From Lingula anatina (taxonomy: Eukaryota; Animalia; Brachiopoda): a stretch of DNA of 64,000 bases. The stretch covers positions 10,416,001 through 10,480,000 of the forward strand of contig CM120649.1 of the NCBI GenBank assembly GCA_051362555.1, given 5' to 3'. The position numbers and the translations under genes were made by a program. Positions 1 to 55,000 of this stretch are shown here, piece after piece. Under the pieces are notes generated by a model, which made no database searches, was not told the origin of the DNA, and was given only the letters and a program-made list of their open reading frames with translations. Each line of letters starts with the position of its first letter. Within the stretch, counting starts at the first letter, position 1.

Positions 1-3000
1 GACAATGTCCTAAATCTTGCCACATATCATGTATTGTAGACTTGGATAAGACATACCTCTGTAGTGCTGCTCTTGATGCTGTCTTTCGCTGCCTGCATCT
101 TCATGGTAAGGGTACTCTGGAAAAAGAACAATATAACTGAAAAAACTGAAAATAACATAGAAAACGCTGGCAAATTCCATGACATAAAATAGTTAAACGT
201 TAATAATTTTGTCAAATCTTGTCCAATATTTCTGAAATTTGTACAAATGATGCTTAACAATAATAAAAATCTGTGATTAGATGATCTGTTGACTGTATCT
301 AATGAAAAGTGTTTCTTGGGGCAACATATTTGGAAAAACTGAAATTTACATTAAAAAGACTGGCAAATCTCATGGCTTAAATAGTTAAACGTTAATAATT
401 TTGTTAAATCTTGTCCAATATTTCTGAAATTTGTACAAATGATGCATAACAACAATAAAAATCTATGATTAGATGATCTGTTTACTGTATCTAATGAAAG
501 TGTTTTTTGGGACAATATATTTGGGAAAACTGAAATTTACATTGAAAAGACTGGCAAATCTCATGACTTAAAATAGTTAAACATTAATAAAATTTTCAAA
601 TCTTGTCCAATATTTCTGAAATTTGTACAAATGATGCTTAACAATAATAAAAATCTGTGATTAGATGATCTGTTCACTGTATCTAATGAAAAGTGTCATT
701 TTGTGACAATATATTTGGGGAAACTAAAATTTACATTGAAAAGACTGGCAAATGTCATGACTAAAATAGTTAAACGTTAATAAAATTTTCAAATCTTGTC
801 CAATATTTCTGAAATTTGTACAAATGATGCTTAACAACAATAAAAATCTGTGATAAGCTGATCAGTTGACTGTGTCAAATGAAAAGTGTCTTTTTGTGAA
901 AATATATTTGGGAAAAATGAAATTTACATTGAAAAGACTGGCAAATCCAAGGGCCTCAAATAGTTAAACGTTAATAATTTTGTCAAATCTAGTCCAGTGT
1001 TTCTGAAATTTGTACAAATGATGCTTAACAACAATTAATACCTCCGATAAGCTGATCAAATGACTGTGTCTAATGAAAAGTATCTTCTTTCGACAATATC
1101 CTTGAAAAAACTGAAAATTACACTGAAAAATCTGGCAAATTCCATGCCTTAAAATAGTTAAATGTTAATAATTTTGCAATGTGATTATTAAATAAAATAG
1201 CAAATGTGATGATTTGAGGTTGTTTGTGTAGGAGGTTGCAAATTACCTATAACTGTTATCTGGAAAACAATATATACCCATACAAGACTTCTCCTTACTA
1301 TCAATGCCAGATGCAGATTACTCCTTACAATGGGTTTCTGGAATGGGTTGTTGTTATCACAACATTTTACAATGTCCTAAGTCTTGCCACATATCATGTA
1401 TTGTACACATGGATAACACATAGTGCTGCTGTTGGTGCTGTCTTTCGCTGCCTGCATCTTCATGGTAAAGGTACTCTGGAAAAAGAACAATATGACTGAA
1501 AAAACTGAAAATAACATAGAAAACACTGGCAAATTCCACGACATAAAATAGTTAAACGTTAATAATTTTTTCAAATCTTGTCCAATATTTCTGAAATTCG
1601 TACAAATGATGCTTAACAACAATAAAAATCTGTGATTAGATGATCTGTTGACTGCATCTAATGAAAAGTGTTTTTTGGGACAACATATTTGGGAAAACTG
1701 AAATTTACATTGAACACACTGGCAAATCTCATGACTTAAAATATTTAAATGTTAATAAAATTTTCAAATCTTGTCCAATATTTCTGAAATTTGTACAAAT
1801 GATGCTTAACAATAATAAAAATCTGTGATTAGATGATCTGTTCACTGTATCTAATGAAAAGTGTCTTTTTGTGACAATATATTTGGGGAAACTGAAATTT
1901 TCATTGAAAAGACTGGCAAATGTCATGACTAAAATAGTTAAACGTTAATAATTTTGTCAAATCTTGTCCAATATTTCTGAAATTTGTACAAATGATGCTT
2001 AACAACAATAAAAATCTGTGATAAGCTGATCAGTTGACTGTGTCAAATGAAAAGTGTCTTTTTGTGAAAATATATTTGGGAAAAATGAAATTTACATTGA
2101 AAAGACTGGCAAATCCAAGGGCCTCAAATAGTTAAACGTTAATAATTTTGTCAAATCTAGTCCAGTGTTTCTGAAATTTGTACAAATGATGCTTAACAAC
2201 AATAAATACCTGCGATAAGCTGATCAAATGACTGTGTCTAATGAAAAGTATCTACTTTCGACAATATCCTTGAAAAAACTGAAAATTACACTGAAAAATC
2301 TGGCAAATTCCATGGCTTAAAATAGTTAAATGTTAATAATTTTGCAATGTGATTATAAAATAAAATAGCAAATGTGATGATTTGAGGTTGTTAGTGTAGG
2401 AGGTTGCAAATTACTTATAACTGTTATCTGGAAAACAATATATACCCATACAAGAATTCTCCTTACTATCAATGCCAGATGCAGATTACTCCTTACAATG
2501 GGTTTCTGGAATGGGTTGCTGTTATCACAACATTTTACAATGTCCTAAGTCTTGCCACATATCATGTATTGTACACATGGATAACACATAGTGCTACTGT
2601 TGGTGCTGTCTTTCACTGCCTGCATCTTCATGGTAAAGGTACTCTGGAAAAAGAACAATATGACTGAAAAAACTGAAAATAACATAGAAAACACTGGCAA
2701 ATTCCACGACATAAAATAGTTAAACGTTAATAATTTTTTCAAATCTTGTCCAATATTTCTGAAATTCGTACAAATGATGCTTTACAACAATAAAAATCTG
2801 TGATTAGATGATCTGTTGACTGCATCTAATGAAAAGTGTTTCTTGGGACAACATATTTGGGAAAACTGAAATTTACATTGAACACACTGGCAAATCTCAT
2901 GACTTAAAATAGTTAAATGTTAATAAAATTTTCAAATCTTGTCCAATATTTCTGAAATTTGTACAAATGATGCTTAACAATAATAAAAATCTGTGATTAG

Positions 3001-6000
3001 ATGATCTGTTCACTGTTTCTAATGAAAAGTGTTTTTTGGGACAACATATTTGGGAAAAATGAAATTTACATTGAAAAGACTGGCAAATCCAAGGACTTCA
3101 AATAGTTAAACGTTAATAATTTTGTCAAATCTAGTCCAGTGTTTCTGAAATTTGTACAAATGATGCTTAACAACAATAAAAACCTGTGATAAGCTGATCA
3201 AATGACTGTGTCTAATGAAAAATATCTTCTTTCGACAATATCCTTGAAAAAACTGGGTTTCTGGAATGGGTTTCTGGAATGGGTTGTTGTTATCACAACA
3301 TTTGACAATGTCCTAAATCTTGCCACATATCATGTATTGTAGACTTGGATAAGACATAGTGCTGCTCTTGATGCTGTCTTTCGCTGCCTGCATCTTCATG
3401 GTAAGGGTACTCTGGAAAAAGAACAATATAACTGAAAAAACTGAAAATAACATAGAAAACGCTGGCAAATTCCATGACATAAAATAGTTAAACGTTAATA
3501 ATTTTGTCAAATCTTGTCCAATATTTCTGAAATTTGTACAAATGATGCTTAACAACAATAAAAATCTGTGATTAGATGATCTGTTGACTGTATTTAATGA
3601 AAAGTGTTTTTTGGGACAACATATTTGGGAAAACTGAAATTTACATTGAAAACACTGGCAAATCTCATGACTTAAAATAGTTAAACGTTAATAAAATTTT
3701 CAAATCTTGTCCAATATTTCTGAAATTTGTACAAATGATGCTAAACAACAATATAAATCTGTGATTAGATGATCTGTTGACTGTATCTAATGAAAAGCGT
3801 TTTTTGGGACAACATATTTGGGAAAACAGAAATTTACATTGAAAAAACTGGCTAATCTCATGACTTTAAATAGTTAAACGTTAATAAAATTTTCAAATCT
3901 TGTCCAATATTTCTGAAATTTGTACAAATGATGCTTAACAATAATAAAAATCTGTGATTAGATGATCTGTTCACTGTATCTAATGAAAAGTGTCATTTTG
4001 TGACAATATATTTGGGAAAACTGAAATTTACATTGAAAAGACTGGCAAATGTCATGACTAAAATAGTTAAACGTTAATAATTTTGTCAAATCTTGTTCAA
4101 AATTTCTGAAATTTTTACAAATGATGCTTAACAACAATATAAATCTGTGATAAGCTGATCAGTTGACTGTGTCAAATGAAAAGTGTCTTTTTGTGAAAAT
4201 ATATTTGGGAAAAATGAAATTTACATTGAAAAGACTGGCAAATCCAAGGGCCTCAAATAGTTAAACGTTAATAATTGTGTCAAATCTAGTCCAGTATTTC
4301 TGAAATTTGTACAAATGATGCTTAACAACAATTAATACCTGCGATAAGCTGATCAAATGACTGTGTCTAATGAAAAGTATCTTCTTTCGACAATATCCTT
4401 GAAAAAACTGAAAATTACACTGAAAAATCTGGCAAATTCCATGGCTTAAAATAGTTAAATGTTAATAATTTTGCAATGTGATTATAAAATAAAATAGCAA
4501 ATGTGATGATTTGAGGTTGTTTGTGTAGGAGGTTGCAAATTACCTATAACTGTTATCTAAAAAACAATATATACCCATACAAGACTTCTCCTTACTATCA
4601 ATGCCAGATGCAGATTACTCCTTACAATGGGTTTCTGGAATGGGTTGTTGTTATCACAACATTTGACAATGTCCTAAATCTTGCCACATATCATGTATTG
4701 TACACATGGATAAGACATAGTGCTGCTCTTGGTGCTGTCTTTCGCTGCCTGCTTCTTCATGGTAAGGGTACTCTGGAAAAAGAACAATACAACGGAAAAA
4801 ACTGAAAATTACATTGAAAAGACTGGGAAATTCCATATCTGAAAATAGTTAAACATTAATTATTTTGTCAAATCTTGTTCAAAATTTCTGAAATTTTTAC
4901 AAATGATGCTTAACAACAATATAAATCTGTGATAAGCTGATCAGTTGACTGTGTATAATGCAAAGTATTTTCTTCAAAGGATATATTTGAGAAATCTGAA
5001 AATTACACTGAGAACAATAGCAAATTCCATGACTTGAAATAGTTAAATGTTAACAATTTTGACAAATCTAGTTCAATATTTCTGAAATTTGTACAAATGA
5101 TGCTTAACAACAATATAAATCTGTGATAAGCTGATCAGTTGACTGTGTAAAATGAAAAGTATTTTCTTCAAACGATATATTTGAGAAATCTGAAAATTAC
5201 ACTGAAAACACTGGCAAATTCCATGACTTGAAATAGTTAAATGTTAACAATTTTGACAAATCTTGTTCAATATTTCTGAAATCTGTACAAATGATGCTTA
5301 AGAATAATAAAAATCTGTGATATGCTGATCACTTGTCTGCGACTTTTTTTTAAGTGTCAAGTTTATTGGAAATTGATAATCAGAAGTGTGAGAATTAACC
5401 AAAACAAATATTTCAATATTGCAATGTATTATTTACCCTCAAAGAAAACAGCAAATGTGATGATTTGAGGTTGTTTGTGTAGGAGGTTGCAAATTACCTA
5501 TAACTGTCATCTGGAAAACAATATATGCCCATACAAGACATCTCCTTACTATCAATGCCAGATGCAGATTACTCCTTACAATGGGTTTCTGGAATGGGTT
5601 GCTGTTAGCACAATATTTGACAATGTCCTAAATCTTGCCACATATCATGTATTGTACACATGGATAAGACATAGTGGTGCTCTTGGTGCTGTCTTTCACT
5701 GTCTGCTTTTTCATGGTAAGGGTACTATGGAAAAAGAACAATATAACTGAAAGAACTGAAATTTACATTGAAAAGACTGGCATATTCAATGACTTAAAAA
5801 TAGTTAAATGTTAAAAATTTGGTCAAATCATGTCCAATATTTCTGAAATTTGTACAAATGATGCTGAACAACAATAAAAATCAGTGATTAGATGATCTGT
5901 TGACTGTATCTAATGAAAAGTGGTTTTTGGGACAACATATTTGGGAAAACTGAAAATTACATTGCAAAGACTGGCAAATCCCAGGACTTAAAAATAGTTA

Positions 6001-6540
6001 AACGTTAATAATTTTGTCAAATCTTGTCCAATGTTTCTGAAATTTGTAAAAATGATGCTTAACAACAATAAAAATCTGTGATAAGCTGATCAAATGACTG
6101 TCTCTAATGAAAAGTATTTTCTTCAGATGATATATTTGAGAAAACTGGAAATTACACTGAAAACACTGGCAAATTCCATGACTCAAAACAGTTAAACATT
6201 AAAAATTTTGACAAATTTTGTCCAGTGTTTCTGAAATCTGTACAAATGATGCTTAACAACAATGAAAATCTATGATATGCTGATCAGTAGTCTGTGTCTT
6301 TTTTTAAGTGTCAAGTTTATTGGAAATTGATAATCAGAAGAGAGAGAATTAACCAATTTGAAAAGAAATATTTCAATATTACAATGTATTATTTACTCTC
6401 AAAGAAAACAGCAAATGTAATGAGTTGAGTTTGTTTTATGAGTTTGTTTGTGTAGGAGGTTGCAAATTACCTATAACTGTCATCTGGAAAACAATATATA
6501 CCCATACAAGACTTCTTCTTGCTATCAATGCCAAATGTGA
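1..6540. repeat. Higher-order satellite array 1: ~192-194 bp AT-rich monomers interrupted by an exon-like spacer; continues off the left edge
   Basis: The monomer landmark AGTTAAAC recurs at 191, 383, 575, 768 and 962 (192-194 bp period). The spacer (GTGTAGGAGGTTGC...GGTACTCTGGAAAAAG) recurs at ~1228, 2396, 4525, 5479 and 6452 (partial), with a truncated copy at ~3255 and a partial copy at 1-125. Confidence 0.95.
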
Positions 6541-6870
6541 TCCATGACAGCCAACCTGCTGAGAGTGAATGGCACCCTATGTGGACAAGTTGGGAATGCT
6601 GGAATTGATAACAGGTGACTACATACATCTTTTTCAATAGCAGTATATGAATCAGCTTTGCAACAGTTTTAGAAATGGACCAATATCTGTACTTTAAAGC
6701 TGGAACATAATTTTATATCATGTTTTCAAATAAAGAAGTTGGTATTTTCGGGTCAAATACACCCATTACTCATCTCTATAAATTCCTGAGTTTACTAAAT
6801 TGACAAGCAATCTTTACAGCTTCATGAAGGCCATTACCCAGTGCACTACCTGACAACCCATTTCTTTGAT
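6540..6870 (-). pseudogene. Decayed YWTD beta-propeller plus EGF-like segment of an LDLR/LRP-family gene
   Basis: Manual minus-strand translation, allowing frameshifts, gives VHWV/NGLHEAVKIA (cf. YWVD..I), then GVFDPKIPTSLFENMI* (cf. HPF.I.LFED.IYW), then DVCSHLLSIPAFPTCP..PFTLS (cf. CSHLCL..P...CP). This is the propeller-then-EGF order of LRPs. Contains stops and indels. Confidence 0.55.
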
Positions 6871-6873
6871 ATC

Positions 6874-7097
6874 CATCTTCATTCTAAGCAATACTTACTA
6901 CACCCTTCCTCATCACTGTTATCTCTACAGTCATTGTTGTGGTCACATCTTCATTCTAAGTAATACTTACTACACCCTTCCTCATCACTGTTATCTCTAC
7001 AGTCATTGTTGTGGTCACATCTTTATTCTAAGTAATACTTACTACACCCTTCCTCATCACTGTTAGCTCTACAGTCATTGTCCTGGTCACATCTTCA
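6874..7097 (-). repeat. 72-bp tandem repeat (3 copies) made of the 3' half of an LDLa exon plus its GTAAGT donor
   Basis: CATCTT landmark at 6874, 6946, 7018 and 7090. The minus-strand unit reads RCDHNNDCRDNSDEEGC followed by A|GTAAGT. Confidence 0.9.
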
Positions 7098-7156
7098 TGA
7101 TAAGTTGATAAAGCAGCCATTATCACATACAAACTTATATGGAGGACATGTGTGAT
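7043..7156 (-). pseudogene. LDL-receptor class A (LDLa) module pseudo-exon
   Basis: 114 nt, phase 1-1, translating (D)HTCPPYKFVCDNGCFINLS*RCDQDNDCRANSDEEGC, which matches the LDLa consensus C..F.C.NG.CI...W.CD...DC.D.SDE..C. The conserved Trp is TGA, one Cys is lost, the acceptor AG is mutated (ttcctgtgg) and the GTAAGT donor is intact. Confidence 0.9.
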
Positions 7157-7254
7157 CCACAGGAAGACAATAAAAAATACATCTTTAAAACAATTTACTT
7201 TATTTTCAAGTGTCTTAAAACTGTTCCTTCAATTTCTTTGACAAAGCAATAAAA

Positions 7255-7470
7255 TACCTGGGTAATTTACATTAAAATTCTTACATCATTAGCAGCACAA
7301 ATTCACCTAAATATCTGGCATTACATTGAACAAGATGAAAAACTTGCTGAAAGGCTGTGATTAAGCAGCATTACAGATTCAAAAACTCACTGAAATATGT
7401 AAAAAATCTAGAAGACAATGCAATCACCTTATGACGATTTATGAAACTCTATTGTTATCTGACCATCTTG
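7255..7470 (-). pseudogene. Possible further degenerate LDLa fragments
   Basis: The minus strand gives EFH....GDCI and GEFV/AND.RI (cf. EF.C.NG.CI) with indels and stops, directly beside the clear LDLa exon. Confidence 0.35.
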
Positions 7471-7477
7471 AAAATAA

Positions 7478-37079: not shown

Positions 37080-40000
37080 AAAAGAGACTGGGATAAGTTT
37101 ATCAGTTGACTGTGTCTAATGACTGTGTCCAATGAATTTGTATTTTTGGACAATATATTTGATAAAAACTTTAAATTATTTTGAAAAACAATGGCTTAAA
37201 AAAGTTAGGCGTTAATAATTTAGACAAATCTAGTCCAATGTTTGTGAAATTTGTACAAACGAGGCTTACAAACATTAAAAATCTGAGATAAGATTATCAG
37301 TAGACTGTATGTAATGAAAATGATTTTTCGGACAATATATTCAAGAAAACTGAACATTATGTTAAAAAGACTGGCGATTTTCATGGATACAAATAGCTGA
37401 ACATTAATAATTTTGAAAAATCTCAGATTGTTCAAATTTTTCTAAAATTTGAACAATCTGAGATAAGAGCTGCCTGTGTCTAATGAAACACAATCAATAT
37501 ATTCGAGAAAACCGAAAATTACATTGAAAAGAAAAGGTTTACCTGGAAAAAGGGCAAAGTCCATGACTTAAAATAGTTAAACGTTAATAATTTAAACAAA
37601 TCTGCTCCAATGTTTGTGAAATTTGTACAAATGATGCCTAATATCAGTAAAAATCTGAGATAAAATTATCAGTTGACTGTGTGTAATTAAAGTGATTTTT
37701 CAGACAATATATTTGAGAAAACCGAAAATTACGTTGAAAACATTGGCAAATTCCAAGGCTTAAAATAGTTAAACGTTAATAATTTTGACAAATATGGTTT
37801 AATATTTGTGAAATTTGAAAAAAAGTGCCTAAGAGCAATAAAAATCTGACATAAGCTTATCAGTTGACTACGTGTAATCAAAGTGACTTTTTGCACAATA
37901 TATTCCAGAAAATCCAAAATGACGTTGAAAACTTTGGCAAATTCCAAGGCTTAAAATAGTTAAACGTTAATAATTTTCACAAATCTGGTCACATGTTTGT
38001 GAAATTTGTACAAATGATGCCTAATAACAATAAAAATCTGAAATAAGCTTACCACTTCACTGTTTCTAATTTAAGTGTATTTTATTAGCAATTGATTCCA
38101 GAAGAGTGACAATTTATGAAAACAAATATTTCAATATTCCAATAAATCATTTTATCTCAAATAAAACATCAGATGTGATGACTTGTGTTTGTTTGTTTAG
38201 GAAGTGGCAAATTACCTATTATTGTCTTCTGAAAAGCAACATATACCCAATTAAGACTTCTCCTTACTACCAATACCAGATGCAGATTCCTCCTTATAGT
38301 GGGTTTCTGGAATGAGGTTGTTAGAACACCATTTCACCATGTCCTAGATCTTCCCACATATCATGTATTGTACACATGGATGAGACATAGCACTGCTCTT
38401 GATGTTGTCCTTCACTGCCTGTTTTTTCTATAGGCATTAACCATGGATAGACAGATTGAGTCCGTCAACCAAGAAGCCACCAGGCTGCAAGGAAATGTTT
38501 ACCTGGAAAAAGGGCAAAGTCCATGGCGTAATATAGTTAAACGTTAATAATTTTAACAAATCTGGTCCAATGTTTGTGAAATTTGTACAAATGATGCCTA
38601 ATATCAGTAAAAATCTGAGATAAAATTATCAGTTGACTATGTGTATTTAAAGTGATTTTTCAGACAATATATTTGAGAAAACCAAAAATTACGTTGAAAA
38701 CATTGGCAAATTCCAAGGCTTAAAATAGTTAAACGTTAATAATTTTGACAAATCTGGTCACATGTTTGTGAAATTTGTACAAATGATGCCTAATAACAAT
38801 AAAAATCTGAAATAAGCTTATCACTTCACTGTTTCTAATTTAAGTGTATTTTATTAGCAATTGATTCCAGAAGAGTGAGAATTTATGAAAACAAATATTT
38901 CAATATTCCAATAAATCATTTTATCTCAAATAAAACATCAGATGTGATGACTTGTGTTTGTTTGTTTGTTTGTGTAGAAAGTGGCAAATTACCTATTATT
39001 GTCTTCTGAAAAGCAACATATACCCAATCAAGACTTCTCCTTACTACCAATACCAGATGCAGATTCCTCCTTACAGTGGGTTCCTGGAATGAGGTTGTTA
39101 GAACACCATTTCACCATGTCCTAGATCTTCCCACATATCATGTATTGTACACATGGATGAGACATAGCACTGCTCTTGATGTTGTCTTTCACTGTCTGTT
39201 TTTTCTATAGGCATTAACCATGAATAGACAGATAGAGTCCGTCCACCAACAAGCCACCAGTCTGCAAGGAAAGGTTTACTTGGAAAAAGGGCAAAGTCCA
39301 TGACTTAAAATATTTAAACGTTAATAATTTTAACAAATCTGGTCCAATGTTTGTGAAATTTGTACAAATGATGCCTAATATCAGTAAAAATCTGAGATAA
39401 AATTATCAGTTGACTGCGTGTAATTAAAGTGATTTTTCAGACAATATATTTGAGAAAACCGAAAATTACGTTGAAAACATTGGCAAATTCCAAGGCTTAA
39501 AATAGTTAAACGTTAATAATTTTAACAAATCTGGTCATATGTTTGTGAAATTTGTACAAATGATGCCTAATAACAGTAAAATTTGAGATAAAATTATCAG
39601 TTGACTGTGTGTAATTAAAGTGACTTTTCAGACAATATATTCGAGAAAATCGAAAATGACGTTGAAAACTTTGGCAAATTCCAAGGCTTAAAATAGTTAA
39701 ACGTTAATGATTTTCACAAATCTGGTCATATGTTTGTGAAATTTGTACAAATGATGCCTAATAACAATAAAAATCTAAAATAAGCTTATCACTTCACTGT
39801 TTCTAATTTAAGTGTATTTTATTACCAATTGATTCCAGAAGAGTGAGAATTTATGAAAACAAATATTTCAATATTCCAATAAATCATTTTATCTCAAATA
39901 AAACATCAGATGTGATGACTTGTGTTTGTTTGTGTAGGAAGTGGCAAATTACCTATTATTGTCTTCTGAAAAGCAACATATACCCAATCAAGATTTCTCC

Positions 40001-43000
40001 TTACTACCAATACCAGATGCATATTCCTCCTTACAGTGGGTTTCTGGAATCAGGCTGTTAGAACACCATTTCACCATGTCCTAGATCTCCCACATATCAT
40101 GTATTGTACACATGGATGAGACATAGCACTGCTCTTGATGTTGTCCTTCACTGCCTGTTTTTTCTATAGGCATTAACCATGAATAGACAGATAGAGTCCG
40201 TCCACCAACAAGCCACCAGGCTGCAAGGAAAGGTTTACCTGCAAAAAGGGCAAAGTCCATGGCGTAAAATATTTAAACGTTAACAATTTTAACAAATCTG
40301 GTCCAATGTTTGTGAAATTTGTACAAATGATGCCTAATAAAAATAAAAATCTGACATAATCTAAGCAGTTGACTGTGTGAAATGAAAATGATTTTTCAGA
40401 CAATATATTCGAGAAACCTCAAAATTACGTTGAAAACACTGGCAAATTCTACGGCTTAAAATAGTTAAATGTTAATAATTTTGACAAATATAGTTTAATA
40501 TTTGTGAAATTTGAAAAAAAATTGCCTAAGAGCAATAAAAATCTGACATAAGCTTATCAGCTGACTACGTGTAATCAAAGTGACTTATTGCACAATATAT
40601 TCGAGAAAATCGAAAATGACGTTGAAAACTTTGGCAAATTCCAAGGCTTAAAATAGTTAAACGTTAATGATTTTCACAAATCTGGTCATATGTTTGTGAA
40701 ATTTGTACAAATGATGCCTAATAACAATAAAAATCTGAAATAAGCTTATCACTTCACTGTATCTAATTTAAGTGTATTTTATTAGCAATTGATTCCAGAA
40801 GAGTGAGAATTTATGAAAACAAATATTTCAATATTCTAATAAATCATTTTATCTCAAATAAAACATCAGATGTGATGACTTGTGTTTGTTTGTGTAGGAA
40901 GTGGCAAATTACCTATTATTGTCTTCTGAAAAGCAACATATACCCAATCAAGACTTCTCCGTACTACCAATACAAGATGCAGATTCCTCCTTACAGTGGG
41001 TTTCTGGAATGAGGCTGTTAGAACACCATTTCACCATGTCCTAGATCTCCCACATATCATGTATTGTACACATGGATGAGACATAGCACTGCTCTTGATG
41101 TTGTCTTTCACTGCCTGTTTTTTCTATAGGCATTAACCATGGATAGACAGATTGAGTCCGTCAACCAAGAAGCCACCAGGCTGCAAGGAAATGTTTACCT
41201 GGAAAAAGGGCAAAGTCCATGGCGTAAAATATTTAAACGTTAATAATTTTAACAAATCTGGTCCAATGTTTGTGAAATTTGTACAAATGATGCCTAATAT
41301 CAGTAGAAATCTGAGATAAAATTATCAGTTGACTGTGTGTAATTAAAGTGATTTTTCAGACAATATATTTGAGAAAACCGAAAATTACGTTGAAAACATT
41401 GGCAAATTCCAAGGCTTAAAATAGTTAAATGTTAATAATTTTAACAAATATGGTCATATGTTTGTGAAATTTGTACAAATGATGCCTAATAACAGTAAAA
41501 ATCTGAGATAAAATTATCAGTTGACTGTGTGTAATTAAAGTGACTTTTCAGACAATATATTCAAGAAAACCGAAAATGACGTTGAAAACATTGGCAAATT
41601 CCAAGGCTTAAAATAGTTAAACGTTAATAATTTTGACAAATCTGGTCATATGTTTGTGAAATTTGTACAAATGATGCCTAATAACAATAAAAATCTGAAA
41701 TAAGCTTATCACTTCACTGTTTCTAATTTAAGTGTATTTTATTAGCAATTGATTCCAGAAGAGTGAGAATTTATGAAAACAAATATTTCAATATTCCAAT
41801 AAATCATTTTATCTCAAATAAAACATCAGATGTGATGACTTGTGTTTGTTTGTGTAGGAAGTGGCAAATTACCTATTATTGTCTTCTGAAAAGCAACATA
41901 TACCCAATCAAGACTTCTCCTTACTACCAATACCAGATGCAGATTCCTCTTTACAGTGGGTTTCTGGAATCAGGCTGTTAGAACACCATTTCACCATGTC
42001 CTAGATCTTCCCACATATCAAGTATTGTACACATGGATGAGACATAGCACTGCTCTTGATGTTGTCTTTCACTGCCCGTTTTTTTTCTACACGCATTAAC
42101 CATGAATAGACAGATAGAGTCCGTCAACCAACAAGCCACCAGGCCGCAAGGAAAGTTTTACCTGGAAAAAGGGCAAAGTCCATGGCTTAAAATAGTTAAA
42201 CGTTAATAATTTTGACAAATCTGGTCATATGTTTGTGAAATTTGTACAAATGATGCTTAATAACAATAAAAATCTGAAATAAGTTGATCACTTCACTGTT
42301 TCTAATTTAAGTGTATTTTATTACCAATTGATTTTGGAAGAGTGAGAATTAATCAAAAGCAAATATTTTAATATTCCAATAAATCATTTTATCTCAAATA
42401 AAACATCAGATGTGATGACTTGTGTTTGTTTGTGTAGGAAGTGGCAAATTACCTATTATTGTCTTCTGAAAAGCAACATATACCCAACCAAGACTTCTCC
42501 TTACTACCAATACCAGATGCAGATTCCTCCTTACAGTGGGTTTCTGGAATCAGGCTGTTAGAACACCATTTCACCATGTCCTAGATCTCCCACATATCAT
42601 GTATTGTACACATGGATGAGACATAGCACTGCTCTTGATGTTGTCTTTCACTGCCTGTTTTTTCTATAGGCATTAACCATGAATAGACAGATAGAGTCCG
42701 TCCACCAACAAGCCACCAGGTTGCAAGAAAAGGTTTACCTGCAAAAAGGGCAAAGTCCATGGCGTAAAATATTTAAACGTTAATAATTTTAACAAATCTG
42801 GTCCAATGTTTGTGAAATTTGTACAAATGATGCCTAATAAAAATAAAAATCTGACATAATCTAAGCAGTTGACTGTGTGAAATGAAAATGATTTTTCAGA
42901 CAATATATTCGAGAAACCTCAAAATTACATTGAAAACATTGGTAAATTCCAAGGCTTAAAATAGTTAAACGTTAATAATTTTTACAAATCTGGTCATATG

Positions 43001-46000
43001 TTTGTGAAATTTGTACAAATGATGCCTAATAACAGTAAAAATCTGAGATAAAATTATCAGTTGACTGTGTGTAATTAAAGTGACTTTTCAGACAATATAT
43101 TCGAGAAAATGACGTTGAAAGCTTTGGCAAATTCCAAGGCTTAAAATAGTTAAACGTTAATAATTTTGACAAATCTGGTCCAATGTTTGTGAAATTTGTA
43201 CAAATGATGCCTAATATCAGTAAAAATCTGAGATAAAATTATCAGTTGACTGTGTGTAATTAAAGTGATTTTTCAGACAATATATTTGAGAAAACCGAAA
43301 ATTACGTTGAAAACAATGGCAAATTCCAAGGCTTAAAATAGTTAAACGTTAATAATTTTAACAAATATGGTCATATGTTTGTGAAATTTGTACAAATGAT
43401 GCCTAATAACAGTAAAAGTCTGAGATAAAATTATCAGTTGACTGTGTGTAATTAAAGTGACTTTTCAGACAATATATTCGAGAAAATCGAAAATGACGTT
43501 GAAAACTTTGGCAAATTCCAAGGCTTAAAATAGTTAAACGTTAATAATTTTGACAAATCTGGTCCAATGTTTGTCAAATGTGTACAAATGATGCCTAATA
43601 ACAATAAAAATCTGAAATAAGCTTATCACTTCACTGTTTCTAATTTAAGTGTATTTTATTAGCAATTGATTCCAGAAGAGTGAGAATTTATGAAAACAAA
43701 TATTTCAATATTCCAATAAATCATTTTATCTCAAAACAAACCATCAGATGTGATGACTTGTGTTTGTTTGTGTAGGAAGTGGCAAATTACCTATTATTGT
43801 CTTCTGAAAAGCAACATATACCCAATCAAGATTTCTCCTTACTACCAATACCAGATGCAGATTCCTCCTTACAGTGGGTTTCTGGAATCAGGCTGTTAGA
43901 ACACCATTTCACCATGTCCTAGATCTCCCACATATCATGTATTGTACACATGGATGAGACATAGCACTCCTCTTGATGTTGTCTTTCACTGCCTGTTTTT
44001 TCTATAGGCATTAACCATGAATAGACAGATAGAGTCCGTCCACCAACAAGCCACCAGGTTGCAAGAAAAGGTTTACCTGCAAAAAGGGCAAAGTCCATGG
44101 CGTAAAATATTTAAACGTTAATAATTTTAACAAATCTGGTCCAATGTTTGTGAAATTTGTACAAATGATGCCTAATAAAAATAAAAATCTGACATAATCT
44201 AAGCAGTTGACTGTGTGAAATGAAAATGATTTTTCAGACAATATATTCGAGAAACCTCAAAATTACATTGAAAACATTGGTAAATTCCAAGGCTTAAAAT
44301 AGTTAAACGTTAATAATTTTTACAAATCTGGTCATATGTTTGTGAAATTTGTACAAATGGTGCCTAATAACAGTAAAAATCTGAGATAAAATTATCAGTT
44401 GACTGTGTGTAATTAAAGTGACTTTTCAGACAATATATTCGAGAAAATGACGTTGAAAGCTTTGGCAAATTCCAAGGCTTAAAATAGTTAAACGTTAATA
44501 ATTTTGACAAATCTGGTCCAATGTTTGTGAAATTTGTACAAATGATGCCTAATATCAGTAAAAATCTGAGATAAAATTATCAGTTGACTGTGTGTAATTA
44601 AAGTGATTTTTCAGACAATATATTTGAGAAAACCGAAAATTACGTTGAAAACAATGGCAAATTCCAAGGCTTAAAATAGTTAAACGTTAATAATTTTAAC
44701 AAATATGGTCATATGTTTGTGAAATTTGTACAAATGATGCCTAATAACAGTAAAAGTCTGAGATAAAATTATCAGTTGACTGTGTGTAATTAAAGTGACT
44801 TTTCAGACAATATATTCGAGAAAATCGAAAATGACGTTGAAAACTTTGGCAAATTCCAAGGCTTAAAATAGTTAAACGTTAATAATTTTGACAAATCTGG
44901 TCCAATGTTTGTCAAATGTGTACAAATGATGCCTAATAACAATAAAAATCTGAAATAAGCTTATCACTTCACTGTTTCTAATTTAAGTGTATTTTATTAG
45001 CAATTGATTCCAGAAGAGTGAGAATTTATGAAAACAAATATTTCAATATTCCAATAAATCATTTTATCTCAAAACAAACCATCAGATGTGATGACTTGTG
45101 TTTGTTTGTGTAGGAAGTGGCAAATTACCTATTATTGTCTTCTGAAAAGCAACATATACCCAATCAAGATTTCTCCTTACTACCAATACCAGATGCAGAT
45201 TCCTCCTTACAGTGGGTTTCTGGAATCAGGCTGTTAGAACACCATTTCACCATGTCCTAGATCTCCCACATATCATGTATTGTACACATGGATGAGACAT
45301 AGCACTGCTCTTGATGTTGTCTTTCACTGCCTGTTTTTTCTATAGGCATTAACCATGAATAGACAGATAGAGTCCGTCCACCAACAAGCCACCAGGTTGC
45401 AAGGAAAGGTTTACCTGCAAAAAGGGCAAAGTCCATGGCGTAAAATATTTAAACGTTAATAATTTTAACAAATCTGGTCCAATGTTTGTGAAATTTGTAC
45501 AAATGATGCCTAATAAAAATAAAAATCTGACATAATCTAAGCAGTTGACTGTGTGAAATGAAAATGATTTTTCAGACAATATATTCGAGAAACCTCAAAA
45601 TTACTTTGAAAACATTGGTAAATTCCAAGGCTTAAAATAGTTAAACGTTAATAATTTTTAACAAATATGGTCATATGTTTGTGAAATTTGTACAAATGAT
45701 GCCTAATAACAGTAAAAGTCTGAGATAAAATTATCAGTTGACTGTGTGTAATTAAAGTGACTTTTCAGACAATATATTCGAGAAAATCGAAAATGACGTT
45801 GAAAACTTTGGCAAATTCCAAGGCTTAAAATAGTTAAACGTTAATAATTTTGACAAATCTGGTCCAATGTTTGTGAAATTTGTACAAATAATGCCTAATA
45901 TCAGTAAAAATCTGAGATAAAATTATCAGTTGACTGTGTTTAATTAAAGTGATTTTTCAGACAATATATTTGAGAAAACCGAAAATTACGTTGAAAACAT

Positions 46001-49000
46001 TGGCAAATTCCAAGGCTTAAAATAGTTAAACGTTAATAATTTTGACAAATCTGGTCCAATGTTTGTGAAATTTGTACAAATGATGCCTAATAACAATAAA
46101 AATCTGAAATAAGCTTACCACTTCACTGTTTCTAATTTAAGTGTATTTTATTAGCAATTGATTCCAGAAGAGTGAGAATTTATGAAAACAAATATTTCAA
46201 TATTCCAATAAATCATTTTATCTCAAAACAAACCATCAGATGTGATGACTTGTGTTTGTTTGTGTAGGAAGTGGCAAATTACCTATTATTGTCTTCTGAA
46301 AAGCAACATATACCCAATCAAGATTTCTCCTTACTACCAATACCAGATGCAGATTCCTCCTTACAGTGGGTTTCTGGAATCAGGCTGTTAGAACACCATT
46401 TCACCATGTCCTAGATCTCCCACATATCATGTATTGTACACATGGATGAGACATAGCACTGCTCTTGATGTTGTCTTTCACTGCCTGTTTTTTCTATAGG
46501 CATTAACCATGAATAGACAGATAGAGTCCGTCCACCAACAAGCCACCAGGTTGCAAGGAAAGGTTTACCTGCAAAAAGGGCAAAGTCCATGGCGTAAAAT
46601 ATTTAAACGTTAATAATTTTAACAAATCTGGTCCAATGTTTGTGAAATTTGTACAAATGATGCCTAATAAAAATAAAAATCTGACATAATCTAAGCAGTT
46701 GACTGTGTGAAATGAAAATGATTTTTCAGACAATATATTCGAGAAACCTCAAAATTACATTGAAAACATTGGTAAATTCCAAGGCTTAAAATAGTTAAAC
46801 GTTAATAATTTTAACAAATCTGGTCATATGTTTGTGAAATTTGTACAAATGATGCCTAATAACAGTAAAAATCTGAGATAAAATTATCAGTTGACTGTGT
46901 GTAATTAAAGTGACTTTTCAGACAATATATTCGAGAAAATGACGTTGAAAACTTTGGCAAATTCCAAGGCTTAAAATAGTTAAACGTTAATAATTTTGAC
47001 AAATCTGGTCCAATGTTTGTGAAATTTGTACAAATGATGCCTAATATCAGTAAAAATCTGAGATAAAATTATCAGTTGACTGTGTGTAATTAAAGTGATT
47101 TTTCAGACAATATATTTCAGAAAACCGAAAATTACGTTGAAAACATTGGCAAATTCCAAGGCTTAAAATAGTTAAACGTTAATAATTTTAACAAATATGG
47201 TCATATGTTTGTGAAATTTGTACAAATGATGCCTAATAACAGTAAAAATCTGAGATAAAATTATCAGTTGACTGTGTTTAATTAAAGTGATTTTTCAGAC
47301 AATATATTTGAGAAAACCGAAAATTACGTTGAAAACATTGGCAAATTCCAAGGCTTAAAATAGTTTAACGTTAATAATTTTGACAAATCTGGTCCAATGT
47401 TTGTGAAATTTGTACAAATGATGCCTAATAACAATAAAAATCTGAAATAAGCTTACCACTTCACTGTTTCTAATTTAAGTGTATTTTATTAGCAATTGAT
47501 TCCAGAAGAGTGAGAATTTATGAAAACAAATATTTCAATATTCCAATAAATCATTTTATCTCAAAACAAACCATCAGATGTGATGACTTGTGTTTGTTTG
47601 TGTAGGAAGTGGCAAATTACCTATTATTGTCTTCTGAAAAGCAACATATACCCAATCAAGATTTCTCCTTACTACCAATACCAGATGCAGATTCCTCCTT
47701 ACAGTGGGTTTCTGGAATCAGGCTGTTAGAACACCATTTCACCATGTCCTAGATCTCCCACATATCATGTATTGTACACATGGATGAGACATAGCACTGC
47801 TCTTGATGTTGTCTTTCACTGCCTGTTTTTTCTATAGGCATTAACCATGAATAGACAGATAGAGTCCGTCCACCAACAAGCCACCAGGTTGCAAGGAAAG
47901 GTTTACCTGCAAAAAGGGCAAAGTCCATGGCGTAAAATATTTAAACGTTAATAATTTTAACAAATCTGGTCCAATGTTTGTGAAATTTGTACAAATGATG
48001 CCTAATAAAAATAAAAATCTGACATAATCTAAGCAGTTGACTGTGTGAAATGAAAATGATTTTTCAGACAATATATTCGAGAAACCTCAAAATTACTTTG
48101 AAAACATTGGTAAATTCCAAGGCTTAAAATAGTTAAACGTTAATAATTTTAACAAATCTGGTCATATGTTTGTGAAATTTGTACAAATGATGCCTAATAA
48201 CAGTAAAAATCTGAGATAAAATTATCAGTTGACTGTGTGTAATTAAAGTGACTTTTCAGACAATATATTCGAGAAAATGACGTTGATAACTTTGGCAAAT
48301 TCCAAGGCTTAAAATAGTTAAACGTTAATAATTTTGACAAATCTGGTCCAATGTTTGTGAAATTTGTACAAATGATGCCTAATATCAGTAAAAATCTGAG
48401 ATAAAATTATCAGTTGACTGTGTGTAATTAAAGTGATTTTTCAGACAATATATTTCAGAAAACCGAAAATTACGTTGAAAACATTGGCAAATTCCAAGGC
48501 TTAAAATAGTTAAACGTTAATAATTTTAACAAATATGGTCATATGTTTGTGAAATTTGTACAAATGATGCCTAATAACAGTAAAAGTCTGAGATAAAATT
48601 ATCAGTTGACTGTGTGTAATTAAAGTGACTTTTCAGACAATATATTCGAGAAAATCGAAAATGACGTTGAAAACTTTGGCAAATTCCAAGGCTTAAAATA
48701 GTTAAACGTTAATAATTTTTAACAAATATGGTCATATGTTTGTGAAATTTGTACAAATGATGCCTAATAACAGTAAAAGTCTGAGATAAAATTATCAGTT
48801 GACTGTGTGTAATTAAAGTGACTTTTCAGACAATATATTCGAGAAAATCGAAAATGACGTTGAAAACTTTGGCAAATTCCAAGGCTTAAAATAGTTAAAC
48901 GTTAATAATTTTGACAAATCTGGTCCAATGTTTGTGAAATTTGTACAAATGATGCCTAATATCAGTAAAAATCTGAGATAAAATTATCAGTTGACTGTGT

Positions 49001-52000
49001 TTAATTAAAGTGATTTTTCAGACAATATATTTGAGAAAACCGAAAATTACGTTGAAAACATTGGCAAATTCCAAGGCTTAAAATAGTTAAACGTTAATAA
49101 TTTTGACAAATCTGGTCACATGTTTGTGAAATTTGTACAAATGATGCCTAATAACAATAAAAATCTGAAAAAAGCTTATCACTTCACTGTTTCTAATTTA
49201 AGTGTATTTTATTACCAATTGATTCCAGAAGAGTGAGAATTTATGAAAACAAATATTTCTATATTCCAATAAATCATTTTATCTCAAATAAAACATCAGA
49301 TGTGATGACTTGTGTTTGTTTGTGTAGGAAGTGGCAAATTACCTATTATTGTCTTCTAAAAAGCAACATATACCCAATCAAGACTTCTCCTTACTACCAA
49401 TACCAGATGCAGATTCCTCCTTACAGTGGGTTTCTGGAATCAGGCTGTTAGAACACCATTTCACCATGTCCTAGATCTTCCCACATATCAAGTATTGTAC
49501 ACATGGATGAGACATAGCACTGCTCTTGATGTTGTCTTTCACTGCCCGTTTTTTTTCTACACGCATTAACCATGAATAGACAGATAGAGTTTGTCAACCA
49601 ACAAGCCACCAGGCCGCAAGGAAAGTTTTACCTGGAAAAAGGGCAAAGTCCATGGCTTAAAATAGTTAAACGTTAATAATTTTGACAAATCTGGTCATAT
49701 GTTTGTGAAATTTGTACAAATGATGCCTAATAACAATAAAAATCTGAAATAAGTTGATCACTTCACTATTTCTAATTTAAGTGTATTTTATTACCAATTG
49801 ATTTTGGAAGAGTGAGAATTTATCAAAAGCAAATATTTTAATATTCCAATAAATCATTTTATCTCAAATAAAACATCAGATGTGATGACTTGTGTTTGTT
49901 TGTGTAGGAAGTGGCAAATTACCTATTATTGTCTTCTGAAAAGCAACATATACCCAACCAAGACTTCTCATTACTACCAATACCAGATGCAGATTCCTCC
50001 TAACAGTGGGTTTCTGGAATCAGGCTGTTAGAACACCATTTCACCATGTCCTAGATCTCCCACATATCATGTATTGTACACATGGATGAGACATAGCACT
50101 GCTCTTGATGTTGTCCTTCTCTGCCTGTTTTTTCTATAGGCATTAACCATGAATAGACAGATAGAGTCCATCCACCAACAAGCCACCAGGCTGCAAGGAA
50201 AGGTTTACCTGCAAAAAGGGCAAAGTCCATGGCGTAAAATATTTAAACGTTAATAATTTTAACAAATCTGGTCCAATGTTTGTGAAATTTGTACAAATGA
50301 TGCCTAATAAAAATAAAAATCTGACATAATCTAAGCAGTTGACTGTGTGAAATGAAAATGATTTTTCAGACCATATATTCGAGAAACCTCAAAATTACAT
50401 TGAAAACATTGGTAAATTCCAAGGCTTAAAATAGTTAAACGTTAATAATTTTAACAAATCTGGTCATATGTTTGTGAAATTTGTACAAATGATGCCTAAT
50501 AACAGTAAAAATCTGAGATAAAATTATCAGTTGACTGTGTGTAATTAAAGTGACTTTTCAGACAATATATTCGAGAAAATGACGTTGAAAACTTTGGCAA
50601 ATTCCAAGGCTTAAAATAGTTAAACGTTAATAATTTTGACAAATCTGGTCCAATGTTTGTGAAATTTGTACAAATGATGCCTAATATCAGTAAAAATCTG
50701 AGATAAAATTATCAGTTGACTGTGTGTAATTAAAGTGATTTTTCAGACAATATATTTGAGAAAACCGAAATTTACGTTGAAAACATTGGCAAATTCCAAG
50801 GCTTAAAATAGTTAAACGTTAATAATTTTAAGAAATCTGGTCATATGTTTGTGAAATTTGTACAAATGATGCCTAATAACAGTAAAAGTCTGAGATAAAA
50901 TTATCAGTTGACTGTGTGTAATTAAAGTGACTTTTCAGACAATATATTCTAGAAAATCGAAAATGACGTTGAAAACTTTGGCAAATTCCAAGGCTTAAAA
51001 TAGTTAAACGTTAATAATTTTGACAAATCTGGTCCAATGTTTGTGAAATTTGTACAAATAATGCCTAATATCAGTAAAAATCTGAGATAAAATTATCAGT
51101 TGACTGTGTTTAATTAAAGTGATTTTTCAGACAATATATTTGAGAAAACCGAAAATTACGTTGAAAACATTGGCAAATTCCAAGGCTTAAAATAGTTAAA
51201 CGTTAATAATTTTGACAAATCTGGTCCAATGTTTGTGAAATTTGTACAAATGATGCCTAATAACAATAAAAATCTGAAATAAGCTTATCACTTCACTGTT
51301 TCTAATTTAAGTGTATTTTATTACCAATTGATTCCAGAAGAGTGAGAATTTATGAAAACAAATATTTCAATATTCCAATAAATCATTTTATCTCAAAACA
51401 AACCATCAGATGTGATGACTTGTGTTTGTTTGTGTAGGAAGTGGCAAATTACCTATTATTGTCTTCTGAAAAGCAACATATACCCAATCAAGATTTCTCC
51501 TTACTACCAATACCAGATGCAGATTCCTCCTTACAGTGGGTTTCTGGAATCAGGCTGTTAGAACACCATTTCACCATGTCCTAGATCTCCCACATATCAT
51601 GTATTGTACACATGGATGAGACATAGCACTGCTCTTGATGTTGTCCTTCACTGCCTGTTTTTTCTATAGGCATTAACCATGAATAGACAGATAGAGTCCG
51701 TCCACCAACAAGCCACCAGGCTGCAAGGAAAGGTTTACCTGCAAAAAGGGCAAAGTCCATGGCGTAAAATATTTAAACGTTAATAATTTTAACAAATCTG
51801 GTCCAATGTTTGTGAAATTTGTACAAATGATGCCTAATAAAAATAAAAATCTGACATAATCTAAGCAGTTGACTGTGTGAAATGAAAATGATTTTTCAGA
51901 CAATATATTCGAGAAACCTCAAAATTACATTGAAAACATTGGTAAATTCCAAGGCTTAAAATAGTTAAACGTTAATAATTTTAACAAATATGGTCATATG

Positions 52001-55000
52001 TTTGTGAAATTTGTACAAATGATGCCTAATAACAGTATAAAACTGAGATAAAATTATCAGTTGACTGTGTGTAATTAAAGTGACTTTTCAGACAATATAT
52101 TTGAGAAAATGACGTTGAAAACTTTGGCAAATTCCAAGGCTTAAAATAGTTAAACGTTAATAATTTTGACAAATCTGGTCCAATGTTTGTGAAATTTGTA
52201 CAAATGATGCCTAATAACAGTAAAAATCTGAGATAAAATTATCAGTTGACTGTGTGTAATTAAAGTGATTTTTCAGACAATATATTTGAGAAAACCGAAA
52301 ATTACGTTGAAAACATTGGCAAATTCCAAGGCTTAAAATAGTTAAACGTTAATAATTTTAAGAAATCTGGTCATATGTTTGTGAAATTTGTACAAATGAT
52401 GCCTAATAACAGTAAAAGTCTGAGATAAAATTATCAGTTGACTGTGTGTAATTAAAGTGACTTTTCAGACAATATATTCGAGAAAATCGAAAATGACGTT
52501 GAAAACTTTGGCAAATTCCAAGGCTTAAAATAGTTAAACGTTAATAAATTTGACAAATCTGGTCCAATGTTTGTGAAATTTGTACAAATGATGCCTAATA
52601 TCAGTAAAAATCTGAGATAAAATTATCAGTTGACTGTGTGTAATTAAAGTAATTTTCAGACAATATATTTGAGAAAACCGAAAATTACGTTGAAAACATT
52701 GGCAAATTCCAAGGCTTAAAATAGTTAAACGTTAATAATTTTAACAAATATGGTCATATGTTTGTGAAATTTGTACAAATGATGCCTAATAACAGTAAAA
52801 ATCTGAGATAAAATTATCAGTTGACTGTGTTTAATTAAAGTGATTTTTCAGACAATATATTTGAGAAAACCGAAAATTACGTTGAAAACATTGGCAAATT
52901 CCAAGGCTTAAAATAGTTAAACGTTAATAATTTTGACAAATCTGGTCCAATGTTTGTGAAATTTGTACAAATGATGCCTAATAACAATAAAAATCTGAAA
53001 TAAGCTTACCACTTCACTGTTTCTAATTTAAGTGTATTTTATTAGCAATTGATTCCAGAAGAGTGAGAATTTATGAAAACAAATATTTCAATATTCCAAT
53101 AAATCATTTTATCTCAAAACAAACCATCAGATGTGATGACTTGTGTTTGTTTGTGTAGGAAGTGGCAAATTACCTATTATTGTCTTCTGAAAAGCAACAT
53201 ATACCCAATCAAGATTTCTCCTTACTACCAATACCAGATGCAGATTCCTCCTTACAGTGGGTTTCTGGAATCAGGCTGTTAGAACACCATTTCACCATGT
53301 CCTAGATCTCCCACATATCATGTATTGTACACATGGATGAGACATAGCACTGCTCTTGATGTTGTCTTTCACTGCCTGTTTTTTCTATAGGCATTAACCA
53401 TGAATAGACAGATAGAGTCCGTCCACCAACAAGCCACCAGGTTGCAAGGAAAGGTTTACCTGCAAAAAGGGCAAAGTCCATGGCGTAAAATATTTAAACG
53501 TTAATAATTTTAACAAATCTGGTCCAATGTTTGTGAAATTTGTACAAATGATGCCTAATAAAAATAAAAATCTGACATAATCTAAGCAGTTGACTGTGTG
53601 AAATGAAAATGATTTTTCAGACAATATATTCGAGAAACCTCAAAATTACTTTGAAAACATTGGTAAATTCCAAGGCTTAAAATAGTTAAACGTTAATAAT
53701 TTTAACAAATCTGGTCATATGTTTGTGAAATTTGTACAAATGATGCCTAATAACAGTAAAAATCTGAGATAAAATTATCAGTTGACTGTGTGTAATTAAA
53801 GTGACTTTTCAGACAATATATTCGAGAAAATGACGTTGAAAACTTTGGCAAATTCCAAGGCTTAAAATAGTTAAACGTTAATAATTTTGACAAATCTGGT
53901 CCAATGTTTGTGAAATTTGTACAAATGATGCCTAATATCAGTAAAAATCTGAGATAAAATTATCAGTTGACTGTGTGTAATTAAAGTGATTTTTCAGACA
54001 ATATATTTCAGAAAACCGAAAATTACGTTGAAAACATTGGCAAATTCCAAGGCTTAAAATAGTTAAACGTTAATAATTTTAACAAATATGGTCATATGTT
54101 TGTGAAATTTGTACAAATGATGCCTAATAACAGTAAAAGTCTGAGATAAAATTATCAGTTGACTGTGTGTAATTAAAGTGACTTTTCAGACAATATATTC
54201 GAGAAAATCGAAAATGACGTTGAAAACTTTGGCAAATTCCAAGGCTTAAAATAGTTAAACGTTAATAATTTTTAACAAATATGGTCATATGTTTGTGAAA
54301 TTTGTACAAATGATGCCTAATAACAGTAAAAGTCTGAGATAAAATTATCAGTTGACTGTGTGTAATTAAAGTGACTTTTCAGACAATATATTCGAGAAAA
54401 TCGAAAATGACGTTGAAAACTTTGGCAAATTCCAAGGCTTAAAATAGTTAAACGTTAATAATTTTGACAAATCTGGTCCAATGTTTGTGAAATTTGTACA
54501 AATGATGCCTAATATCAGTAAAAATCTGAGATAAAATTATCAGTTGACTGTGTTTAATTAAAGTGATTTTTCAGACAATATATTTGAGAAAACCGAAAAT
54601 TACGTTGAAAACATTGGCAAATTCCAAGGCTTAAAATAGTTAAACGTTAATAATTTTGACAAATCTGGTCACATGTTTGTGAAATTTGTACAAATGATGC
54701 CTAATAACAATAAAAATCTGAAATAAGCTTATCACTTCACTGTTTCTAATTTAAGTGTATTTTATTACCAATTGATTCCAGAAGAGTGAGAATTTATGAA
54801 AACAAATATTTCTATATTCCAATAAATCATTTTATCTCAAATAAAACATCAGATGTGATGACTTGTGTTTGTTTGTGTAGGAAGTGGCAAATTACCTATT
54901 ATTGTCTTCTAAAAAGCAACATATACCCAATCAAGATTTCTCCTTACTACCAATACCAGATGCAGATTCCTCCTTACAGTGGGTTTCTGGAATCAGGCTG

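What the first reader, a model, noticed from the sequence alone, without database searches (positions are those of the whole stretch)
1247..1475. Satellite 'spacer' looks like a fossil LRP/LDLR YWTD exon amplified into a higher-order repeat
Seen: on the minus strand most full spacers start at a polypyrimidine acceptor (tttttccag| or tttttgcag|) and end at a donor (ATAG|gtaatt). They are 229 nt in array 1 and ~286 nt in array 2 (e.g. 42453-42738), with 192-bp monomers forming the 'intron'. Read across frameshifts, the spacer gives three successive YWTD-like motifs: LQPGGLLVDGLNLSI/W (array 2 only; cf. L..P.GLAVDW...IYW), RAV/HPCVQYM/WEDLG (cf. PRAI.LHP..GYMYW.DWG) and QKPIVRSNL/IDSKEK/LVWVY (cf. 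R..IV..NL...L.ID.....LYWVD). The last copy in array 1 (6452-6540) runs directly into unique YWTD/EGF/LDLa remnants. Inference: an exon-plus-intronic-satellite unit of a dead LRP-like gene was amplified at least 28 times in this window. That would be a gene-derived HOR satellite, which is unusual. Caveat: motif spacing is shorter than a canonical ~43-aa repeat, so deletions must be assumed.
Basis: partly seen in the sequence, partly recalled or inferred. Interest (0 to 1): 0.85.

Follow-up and report, generated by a model that had tools for sequence, protein, structure and literature searches.

The report
Satellite DNA carrying a spliced exon
An animal satellite repeat carries a short spacer between its blocks of monomers, and RNA reads of this repeat family show spacers joined to each other at splice sites with the monomers cut out; the spliced piece has stop codons in all three frames, so it is likely a non-coding by-product of read-through transcription, and the proposed origin from a lipoprotein-receptor YWTD exon did not score above shuffled controls.

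Summary
The repeat is real: 29 spacer copies (229 nt in array 1, 286-289 nt in array 2, about 81% alike) alternate with 192-bp monomers. The 'exon' reading is confirmed by RNA: in 4 of 4 runs from 3 studies, 134 reads join one array-1-type spacer to the next, at the predicted acceptor and at the predicted donor (65) or an internal donor giving a 177-nt exon (69); transcription is on the minus strand. All 26 full copies have stops in every frame and show no codon bias, so the product is non-coding. The YWTD origin is not supported: frameshift-aware searches against LDLR-family proteins, a YWTD profile and an LRP2 profile stayed within shuffle noise, although decay of 30% or more would be missed. 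The neighbouring remnant is a dead LRP2 LDLa exon plus the start of the next LDLa exon, not EGF/YWTD. Not shown: that this very locus is the transcribed one, splicing of array 2, or any function.

The parts
1247..1475 (-). Spacer exon, array-1 type, 229 nt (177 nt when the internal donor after 1299 is used); the finding's copy
   Evidence: Splice signals; RNA joints on the homologous copy 5498-5726, whose reads carry the letters of this copy at 5 of 5 checked places
1..6540 (-). Array 1: units of exon + about 150-nt linker + several 193-bp monomers; runs off the window start
2415..2643 (-). Full spacer exon copy
4544..4772 (-). Full spacer exon copy
5498..5726 (-). Full spacer copy with a dead acceptor (AT for AG); reference on which the RNA joints were laid
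6471..6537 (-). 3' 67 nt of a spacer with intact donor, fused to non-spacer DNA
6540..6581 (-). About 41-nt piece matched by RNA reads that run on differently at both ends; source not identified
   Evidence: loose ends at 6540 (18 reads) and 6581 (13 reads) in run X12
6582..6598 (-). Start of the next LRP2-like LDLa exon (reads FPTCP) behind an intact acceptor; truncated
   Evidence: loose end at 7043; context of P0022
6874..7105 (-). 72-bp tandem repeat (3.2 copies) that duplicates the 3' part of the LDLa exon with its donor site
7043..7159 (-). Dead LRP2-like LDLa exon: in-frame TGA, acceptor TG for AG, intact donor
   Evidence: PF00057 E 9e-13; 74% identical to a Capitella LRP2-like repeat; 65 bits on the LRP2 profile against shuffle maximum 21
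37100..64000 (-). Array 2: 22 spacers of 286-289 nt with 192-bp monomers; unit lengths 580-1722 bp; near-identical 5361- and 5553-bp super-repeats; runs off the window end
42453..42738 (-). Example array-2 spacer, 286 nt (234 nt to the internal donor); splicing not shown

Best explanation
The spacer is a non-coding exon cassette built into a higher-order satellite: minus-strand transcripts of this repeat family are spliced from either of two donors to the next spacer's acceptor, so the monomer blocks leave as introns, and this is likely a neutral by-product of read-through from upstream promoters rather than a selected product. Shown: unit anatomy, splicing of array-1-type spacers, strand, stops in all frames. 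Inferred: the unit began as an exon of a dead gene whose intron held a 192-bp tandem repeat, and unequal exchange then amplified exon plus intron (monomer number per unit varies in steps of about 190 bp; 5.4-kb super-repeats are near-identical). Inferred: arrays act as exon traps, since exons not found in this window are spliced onto the acceptor. The donor gene is not identified; LRP2 is a candidate by position only.
For: 134 joint reads in 4 of 4 RNA runs, 3 studies, all at the predicted acceptor (5726, or within 2 letters): 65 to the end donor, 69 to the internal GT donor (table 5, 15 of 21 rows shown). All 56 joint reads of the two strand-biased runs lie one way, the same way as the LRP2 exon reads at 7033-7174, which fixes the RNA as minus strand. 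RNA depth is exon-rich (X12: 82-112 on exon bins, 0-24 on monomer bins) while DNA depth peaks on monomers (other array). Majority read letters match the other array-1 copies at 5 of 5 places checked. Loose ends at the acceptor carry foreign upstream sequence (at 5726 and 5727; at 39205); two of these three were sought in the window and not found. Stops in all three frames of 26 of 26 full copies for both exon lengths; substitutions between arrays fall 7/13/13, 11/11/12, 9/13/11 on the three codon positions. Splice-site retention (26 of 28, 27 of 27) is what 3-5% within-array divergence gives without selection (my arithmetic). Spacer is not a diverged monomer.
Against: Most laid reads are 80-95% alike (X12: 112 of 430 at 95% or more), so the transcribed arrays may be sister loci, not this one. 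No exon-exon joint for array 2 among 15 of 37 joints shown, and run X20 also covers the array-2 linker. The DNA control was laid on array 2 only and contigs drop rare forms, so a genomic intron-less concatemer is not excluded. The short exon is a multiple of three in 24 of 26 copies (177, 234, 237 nt), which a purely neutral model does not predict. The origin from a gene exon is inferred from splice signals and higher GC (0.39-0.42 against 0.26-0.27 in monomers), not from homology.
Confidence: 0.68

Rival explanations
1. One reading: the spacer is a heavily decayed, internally deleted YWTD exon of an LRP-family gene, amplified with its intronic satellite.
For: An LRP2-like genomic fragment (exon, intron, next exon start) abuts array 1 in the same orientation. 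Short YWTD-like strings appear in some pairwise alignments, best 2 and 4 of 100 shuffles reaching the score among 12 target-copy tests and 4 of 150 in one of 12 profile tests. Simulations show 30-40% decay would be missed in 35-83% of trials.
Against: No YWTD hit above controls: 54 LDLR-family proteins, generic YWTD profile (13 and 32 of 100), full LRP2 profile (4-27 of 30), LRP2 YWTD parts with both arrays merged (34 of 200); no Ldl_recept_b hit in 19 translations. At up to 20% decay with two large deletions 90% or more of simulated exons are detected. The LDLa remnant next door scores 65 bits, so the spacer cannot be part of the same, similarly aged copy. The spacer family appears genome-wide, so adjacency may be an insertion.
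Confidence: 0.15
2. The spacer is a decayed exon of another protein gene, possibly cysteine-rich (LDLa/EGF-like), or a decayed copy of a tandem-exon coding gene.
For: Merged arrays score slightly high on the cysteine-rich parts of the LRP2 profile (1 of 60; 4 of 200). One frame has a single stop over about 60 codons and the short exon keeps phase. An unreviewed note describes a tandem-exon gene that looks like satellite in the same genome.
Against: The alignment misplaces cysteines and is one of many tests; no credible Pfam or PDB hit; no codon bias; no look-alike among earlier notes.
Confidence: 0.15
3. The spliced concatemer is a selected structural long non-coding RNA, like FIRRE, with the exon as its repeated RNA domain.
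For: Reproducible, strand-specific splicing in 3 studies; both donors and the acceptor are shared by arrays about 19% apart.
Against: Low abundance (51 joint reads in 12.4 million records in X12); splice-site retention is at the neutral level; no test of localisation or phenotype.
Confidence: 0.15
4. The LRP2 piece, the 41-nt piece and the array are cargo of a non-autonomous rolling-circle (Helitron-like) element, which captured fragments and spread the arrays.
For: Three unrelated pieces are fused within 130 bp at 6471-6600. Helitrons capture exons and make tandem arrays (PMC12001565, passages). Reads join monomers to a sequence like the 36.74-kb flank, hinting that other arrays share that flank.
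Against: No element ends were identified; no terminal inverted repeat brackets the spacer plus linker; no transposon library was available.
Confidence: 0.2

Closest known systems
FIRRE lncRNA and its exonic RRD repeat (PMC4820808, passages)
   Same: A locally repeated unit that forms many exons of one spliced non-coding RNA (RRD in 7 of 13 human and 11 of 23 mouse exons).
   Different: FIRRE is one locus with a tested function (nuclear retention, hnRNPU binding). Here the introns are satellite monomers, the family appears to be high-copy, and no function is shown.
CapA satellite of New World monkeys, from a NOS1AP intron (10.1101/213868, abstract start and one passage; PMC8210747, passages)
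   Same: A satellite built from a piece of a gene.
   Different: CapA comes from an intron with an identified single-copy source; here the unit holds a working exon and its source is unknown.
Chicken LL2R tandem repeat (10.64898/2026.03.19.712899, abstract and outline)
   Same: One-strand transcription of a tandem array rich in splice signals, from an outside promoter.
   Different: LL2R has excess donors and is suggested to be poorly spliced; here donor and acceptor are paired per unit and spliced products are seen.
   Same: Exon plus intron amplified in tandem.
   Different: Those keep an open frame; this cassette has stops in all frames.
LRP2 (megalin) LDLa cluster III
   Same: The remnant at 7043-7159 and its neighbours in RNA match this repeat and its context.
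   Different: Here only a broken fragment of about 600 bp; the spacer itself does not match LRP2.

Membership tests
Higher-order satellite repeat | Monomers grouped into a larger unit that repeats with higher identity than the monomers | tested here: met
   Monomer matches 64-73% by TRF over the long arrays; 5361- and 5553-bp lags at 99-100%
Spliceosomal exon | AG acceptor and GT donor used in RNA, on the transcribed strand | tested here: met
   134 joint reads, 4 of 4 runs, array-1 type; sites
Spliceosomal exon | Joined form absent from genomic DNA | tested here: inconclusive
   DNA contigs laid on array 2 only; no spacer-spacer joint among 15 of 37 shown; contigs cannot prove absence
Spliceosomal exon (array-2 type) | Exon-exon joints in RNA | tested here: inconclusive
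   None among the joints shown; 22 not shown
YWTD (Ldl_recept_b) pseudo-exon | Alignment to YWTD repeats above shuffled controls | tested here: not met
   power limits
YWTD (Ldl_recept_b) pseudo-exon | Nucleotide match and shared exon borders with the host's intact LRP gene | not testable with these tools
   No host genome held; none of the 26 LRP2 proteins compared matched the LDLa remnant better than 74%
Coding tandem-exon array | Open frame through concatenated exons and codon-position bias | tested here: not met
   At least one stop per frame in 26 of 26 copies; no bias
LRP2 LDLa pseudo-exon (7043-7159) | LDLa match, LRP2 context, disabling lesions | tested here: met
Transposon-derived spacer | Match to a transposon library or terminal repeats | not testable with these tools
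   No eukaryotic repeat library; no bracketing inverted repeat in two units examined

The most novel reading that the evidence does not exclude
A fossil coding exon of an LDL-receptor-family gene became the backbone of a major satellite, spread to the order of a thousand copies with its splice sites alive, and now works genome-wide as an exon trap that turns read-through transcripts into concatemeric non-coding RNAs and can poison host transcripts where arrays sit in introns.
Probability: 0.15. Interest if true: 0.8.

Novelty: new variant of a known kind. Interest (0 to 1): 0.52.

Why it matters
Satellite origins can rarely be traced, and satellite transcripts are usually treated as unprocessed. 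Here a satellite unit has exon-intron anatomy that the spliceosome reads, with alternative donors and foreign upstream exons. That makes testable how long splice signals survive concerted evolution, and whether satellite arrays trap host transcripts. If the source gene is found, it would be a satellite traced to an exon rather than an intron. My paper searches (listings only) showed no satellite whose monomer blocks are spliced out between repeated exons, but the library lacks most subscription journals.

Tried and rejected
YWTD homology by six approaches: not above noise. Spacer as a diverged monomer: rejected. Coding concatemer: rejected on stops and codon positions. PDB profile search with one spacer frame: only an E 1.1 hit; Pfam gave one sub-cutoff hit (PF23770, E 0.0045) in 1 of 12 spacer translations, not followed. 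A chitin-binding-domain or LDLa reading of the spacer was considered by eye and dropped as untested pattern-matching. Metagenome scan for the spacer: 0 matches. No RNA holder listed in the run index; the raw RNA runs were laid instead. First homologue search with the single LDLa repeat found nothing. Other LRP2 exons in the window: none by motif scan or tblastn; a full six-frame Pfam scan of 7.1-39 kb was not obtained. The protein-atlas look-up of the spacer was not obtained, so language-model look-alikes are untested. Summed DNA depth is not treated as a copy number. No supplements were read.

Full report
Observation. The window holds two arrays of an AT-rich 192-193-bp monomer, at 1-6.5 kb and 37.1-64 kb. 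A non-monomer spacer recurs 29 times: 4 full and 3 partial copies in array 1 and 22 in array 2. Copies are 93-98% alike in array 1, 94-100% in array 2 and 79-84% between arrays; array 1 lacks about 60 nt near the 5' end. The spacer is not a diverged monomer and is richer in GC; array-2 units run from 580 to 1722 bp in steps of about 190 bp, and 5361- and 5553-bp super-repeats are near-identical. On the minus strand an AG acceptor is intact in 26 of 28 copies, the end donor GT in 27 of 27, and an internal donor 52 nt upstream in 26 of 27.

The spacer is spliced. Four RNA runs from three studies were laid on 5400-7500 at 80% likeness. All four hold reads that join the 3' end of one spacer to the 5' start of the next: 134 reads in the 15 of 21 joint rows shown (X12 51, X15 5, X18 36, X20 42). 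Of these 65 use the end donor (229-nt exon) and 69 the internal donor (177-nt exon); I count joints displaced by 2-3 letters with unmatched letters between as the same joints. In the two strand-biased runs all 56 joint reads lie in the same direction as the LRP2 exon reads, so the RNA is the minus strand, as the GT-AG signals require. Exon bins are several times deeper than monomer bins in X12. At five well-supported places the reads carry the letter of the copies at 1247, 2415 and 4544 rather than of the reference copy at 5498, whose own acceptor is dead. Loose ends at the acceptor carry at least three different upstream sequences; two were sought in the window and are absent. Limits: most reads are 80-95% alike, so sister arrays may be the source. 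On array 2 (88% likeness, two RNA and two DNA runs) no spacer-spacer joint is among the 15 of 37 joints shown, in RNA or DNA; X12's loose ends there are again array-1-type junctions. So array-2 splicing is open and the DNA control is incomplete. Summed contig depth over the spacer was 130,000-230,000 against about 70-160 for single contigs of the unique flank; the tool warns this is no copy number, and I take it only as a hint of a family in the order of a thousand copies.

It does not code. Both exon lengths have at least one stop in each frame in 26 of 26 full copies, and differences between arrays show no codon-position bias. One oddity: the short exon is a multiple of three in 24 of 26 copies. 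Splice-site retention is at the level expected from within-array divergence alone (my arithmetic).

Origin. The unique DNA beside array 1 holds a real LDLa exon (PF00057, E 9e-13; LRP/VLDLR hits in PDB). Its best match among fetched proteins is a Capitella LRP2-like repeat at 74%, and the neighbouring exons seen in RNA loose ends fit that protein's context. It is dead: in-frame TGA, broken acceptor, a 72-bp tandem duplication of its 3' end, and its upstream exon is not in the window. For the spacer itself I ran frameshift-aware alignments. Against 54 LDLR-family proteins scores (42-51) equalled reversed and complemented controls (39-48) and the best hit of each of 7 copies ended outside the YWTD repeats. 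Against a YWTD profile 11 of 12 tests lay within shuffles and one reached 4 of 150. Against four single propellers the best were 2 and 4 of 100 among 12 tests. Against a 26-sequence LRP2 profile 4-27 of 30 shuffles reached the spacer scores while the LDLa control scored 65 bits against a shuffle maximum of 21. With both arrays merged: YWTD profile 13 and 32 of 100, whole LRP2 1 of 60, split into YWTD parts 34 of 200 and cysteine-rich parts 4 of 200 with a poor alignment. A leave-out simulation detects 90% or more of YWTD exons at up to 20% decay, but 35-83% of those at 30-40% decay score no better than the spacer. So a YWTD origin would need a much older event than the LDLa remnant; it is unsupported, not excluded.

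Mechanism. Most likely an exon of a long-dead gene, with a 192-bp tandem repeat in its intron, was amplified as a unit by unequal exchange (inferred). Transcripts that read into such arrays from upstream promoters are spliced cassette to cassette (shown for the array-1 type), giving a non-coding concatemer, probably without selected function (inferred). Rivals are a decayed YWTD or other coding exon, a FIRRE-like functional RNA, and Helitron cargo.

Comparison. FIRRE has a repeat that forms many exons of a lncRNA (PMC4820808, passages); CapA is a satellite from a gene intron (10.1101/213868, one passage; PMC8210747, passages); chicken LL2R is a one-strand-transcribed array rich in donors (abstract); Helitrons capture exons and form arrays (PMC12001565, passages). 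A satellite review gave no passage on exon-derived satellites under four search words (PMC5615363); PMC6125249 was seen as abstract only. Listings showed no case of monomer blocks spliced out between repeated exons. Earlier notes label the genome as the brachiopod Lingula (unreviewed, not tested here) and hold nothing on this DNA.

Verdict. Anatomy and exon status confirmed and extended; YWTD ancestry not supported. New variant of a known kind; interest 0.52.

Noticed in passing
window 9989-10510, 17477-17969, about 35870-36060: 159-161-bp tandem repeats next to a GC-rich microsatellite (third site seen by eye); resembles non-autonomous Helitron-like elements with tandem cores known from marine invertebrates (recalled, not tested).
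   Followed up: no
window 11935-13056 (+): 373-codon stop-free frame that looks by eye like the 3' part of a non-LTR retrotransposon ORF; no Pfam hit at E 0.01.
   Followed up: partly
window 7512-8410: 62-bp minisatellite, 14.5 copies, 96% alike, just upstream of the LRP2 fragment on the minus strand.
   Followed up: no
window 7175-7500: Minus-strand RNA depth of 12-44 in run X12 over unique DNA upstream of the LDLa exon, with several near-fixed differences; allele or paralogue not resolved.
   Followed up: no
window 36736-36775 and 37684: Reads of run X20 join a monomer directly to a sequence like the 36.74-kb flank, suggesting other arrays share this flank.
   Followed up: partly
window 5631, 5669, 38308: Loose read ends show at least a third spacer subfamily, different from both arrays here.
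   Followed up: no
window about 37530-37560: A unit at the edge of array 2 keeps the acceptor and first 12 nt of the spacer but has lost the rest (seen).
   Followed up: no
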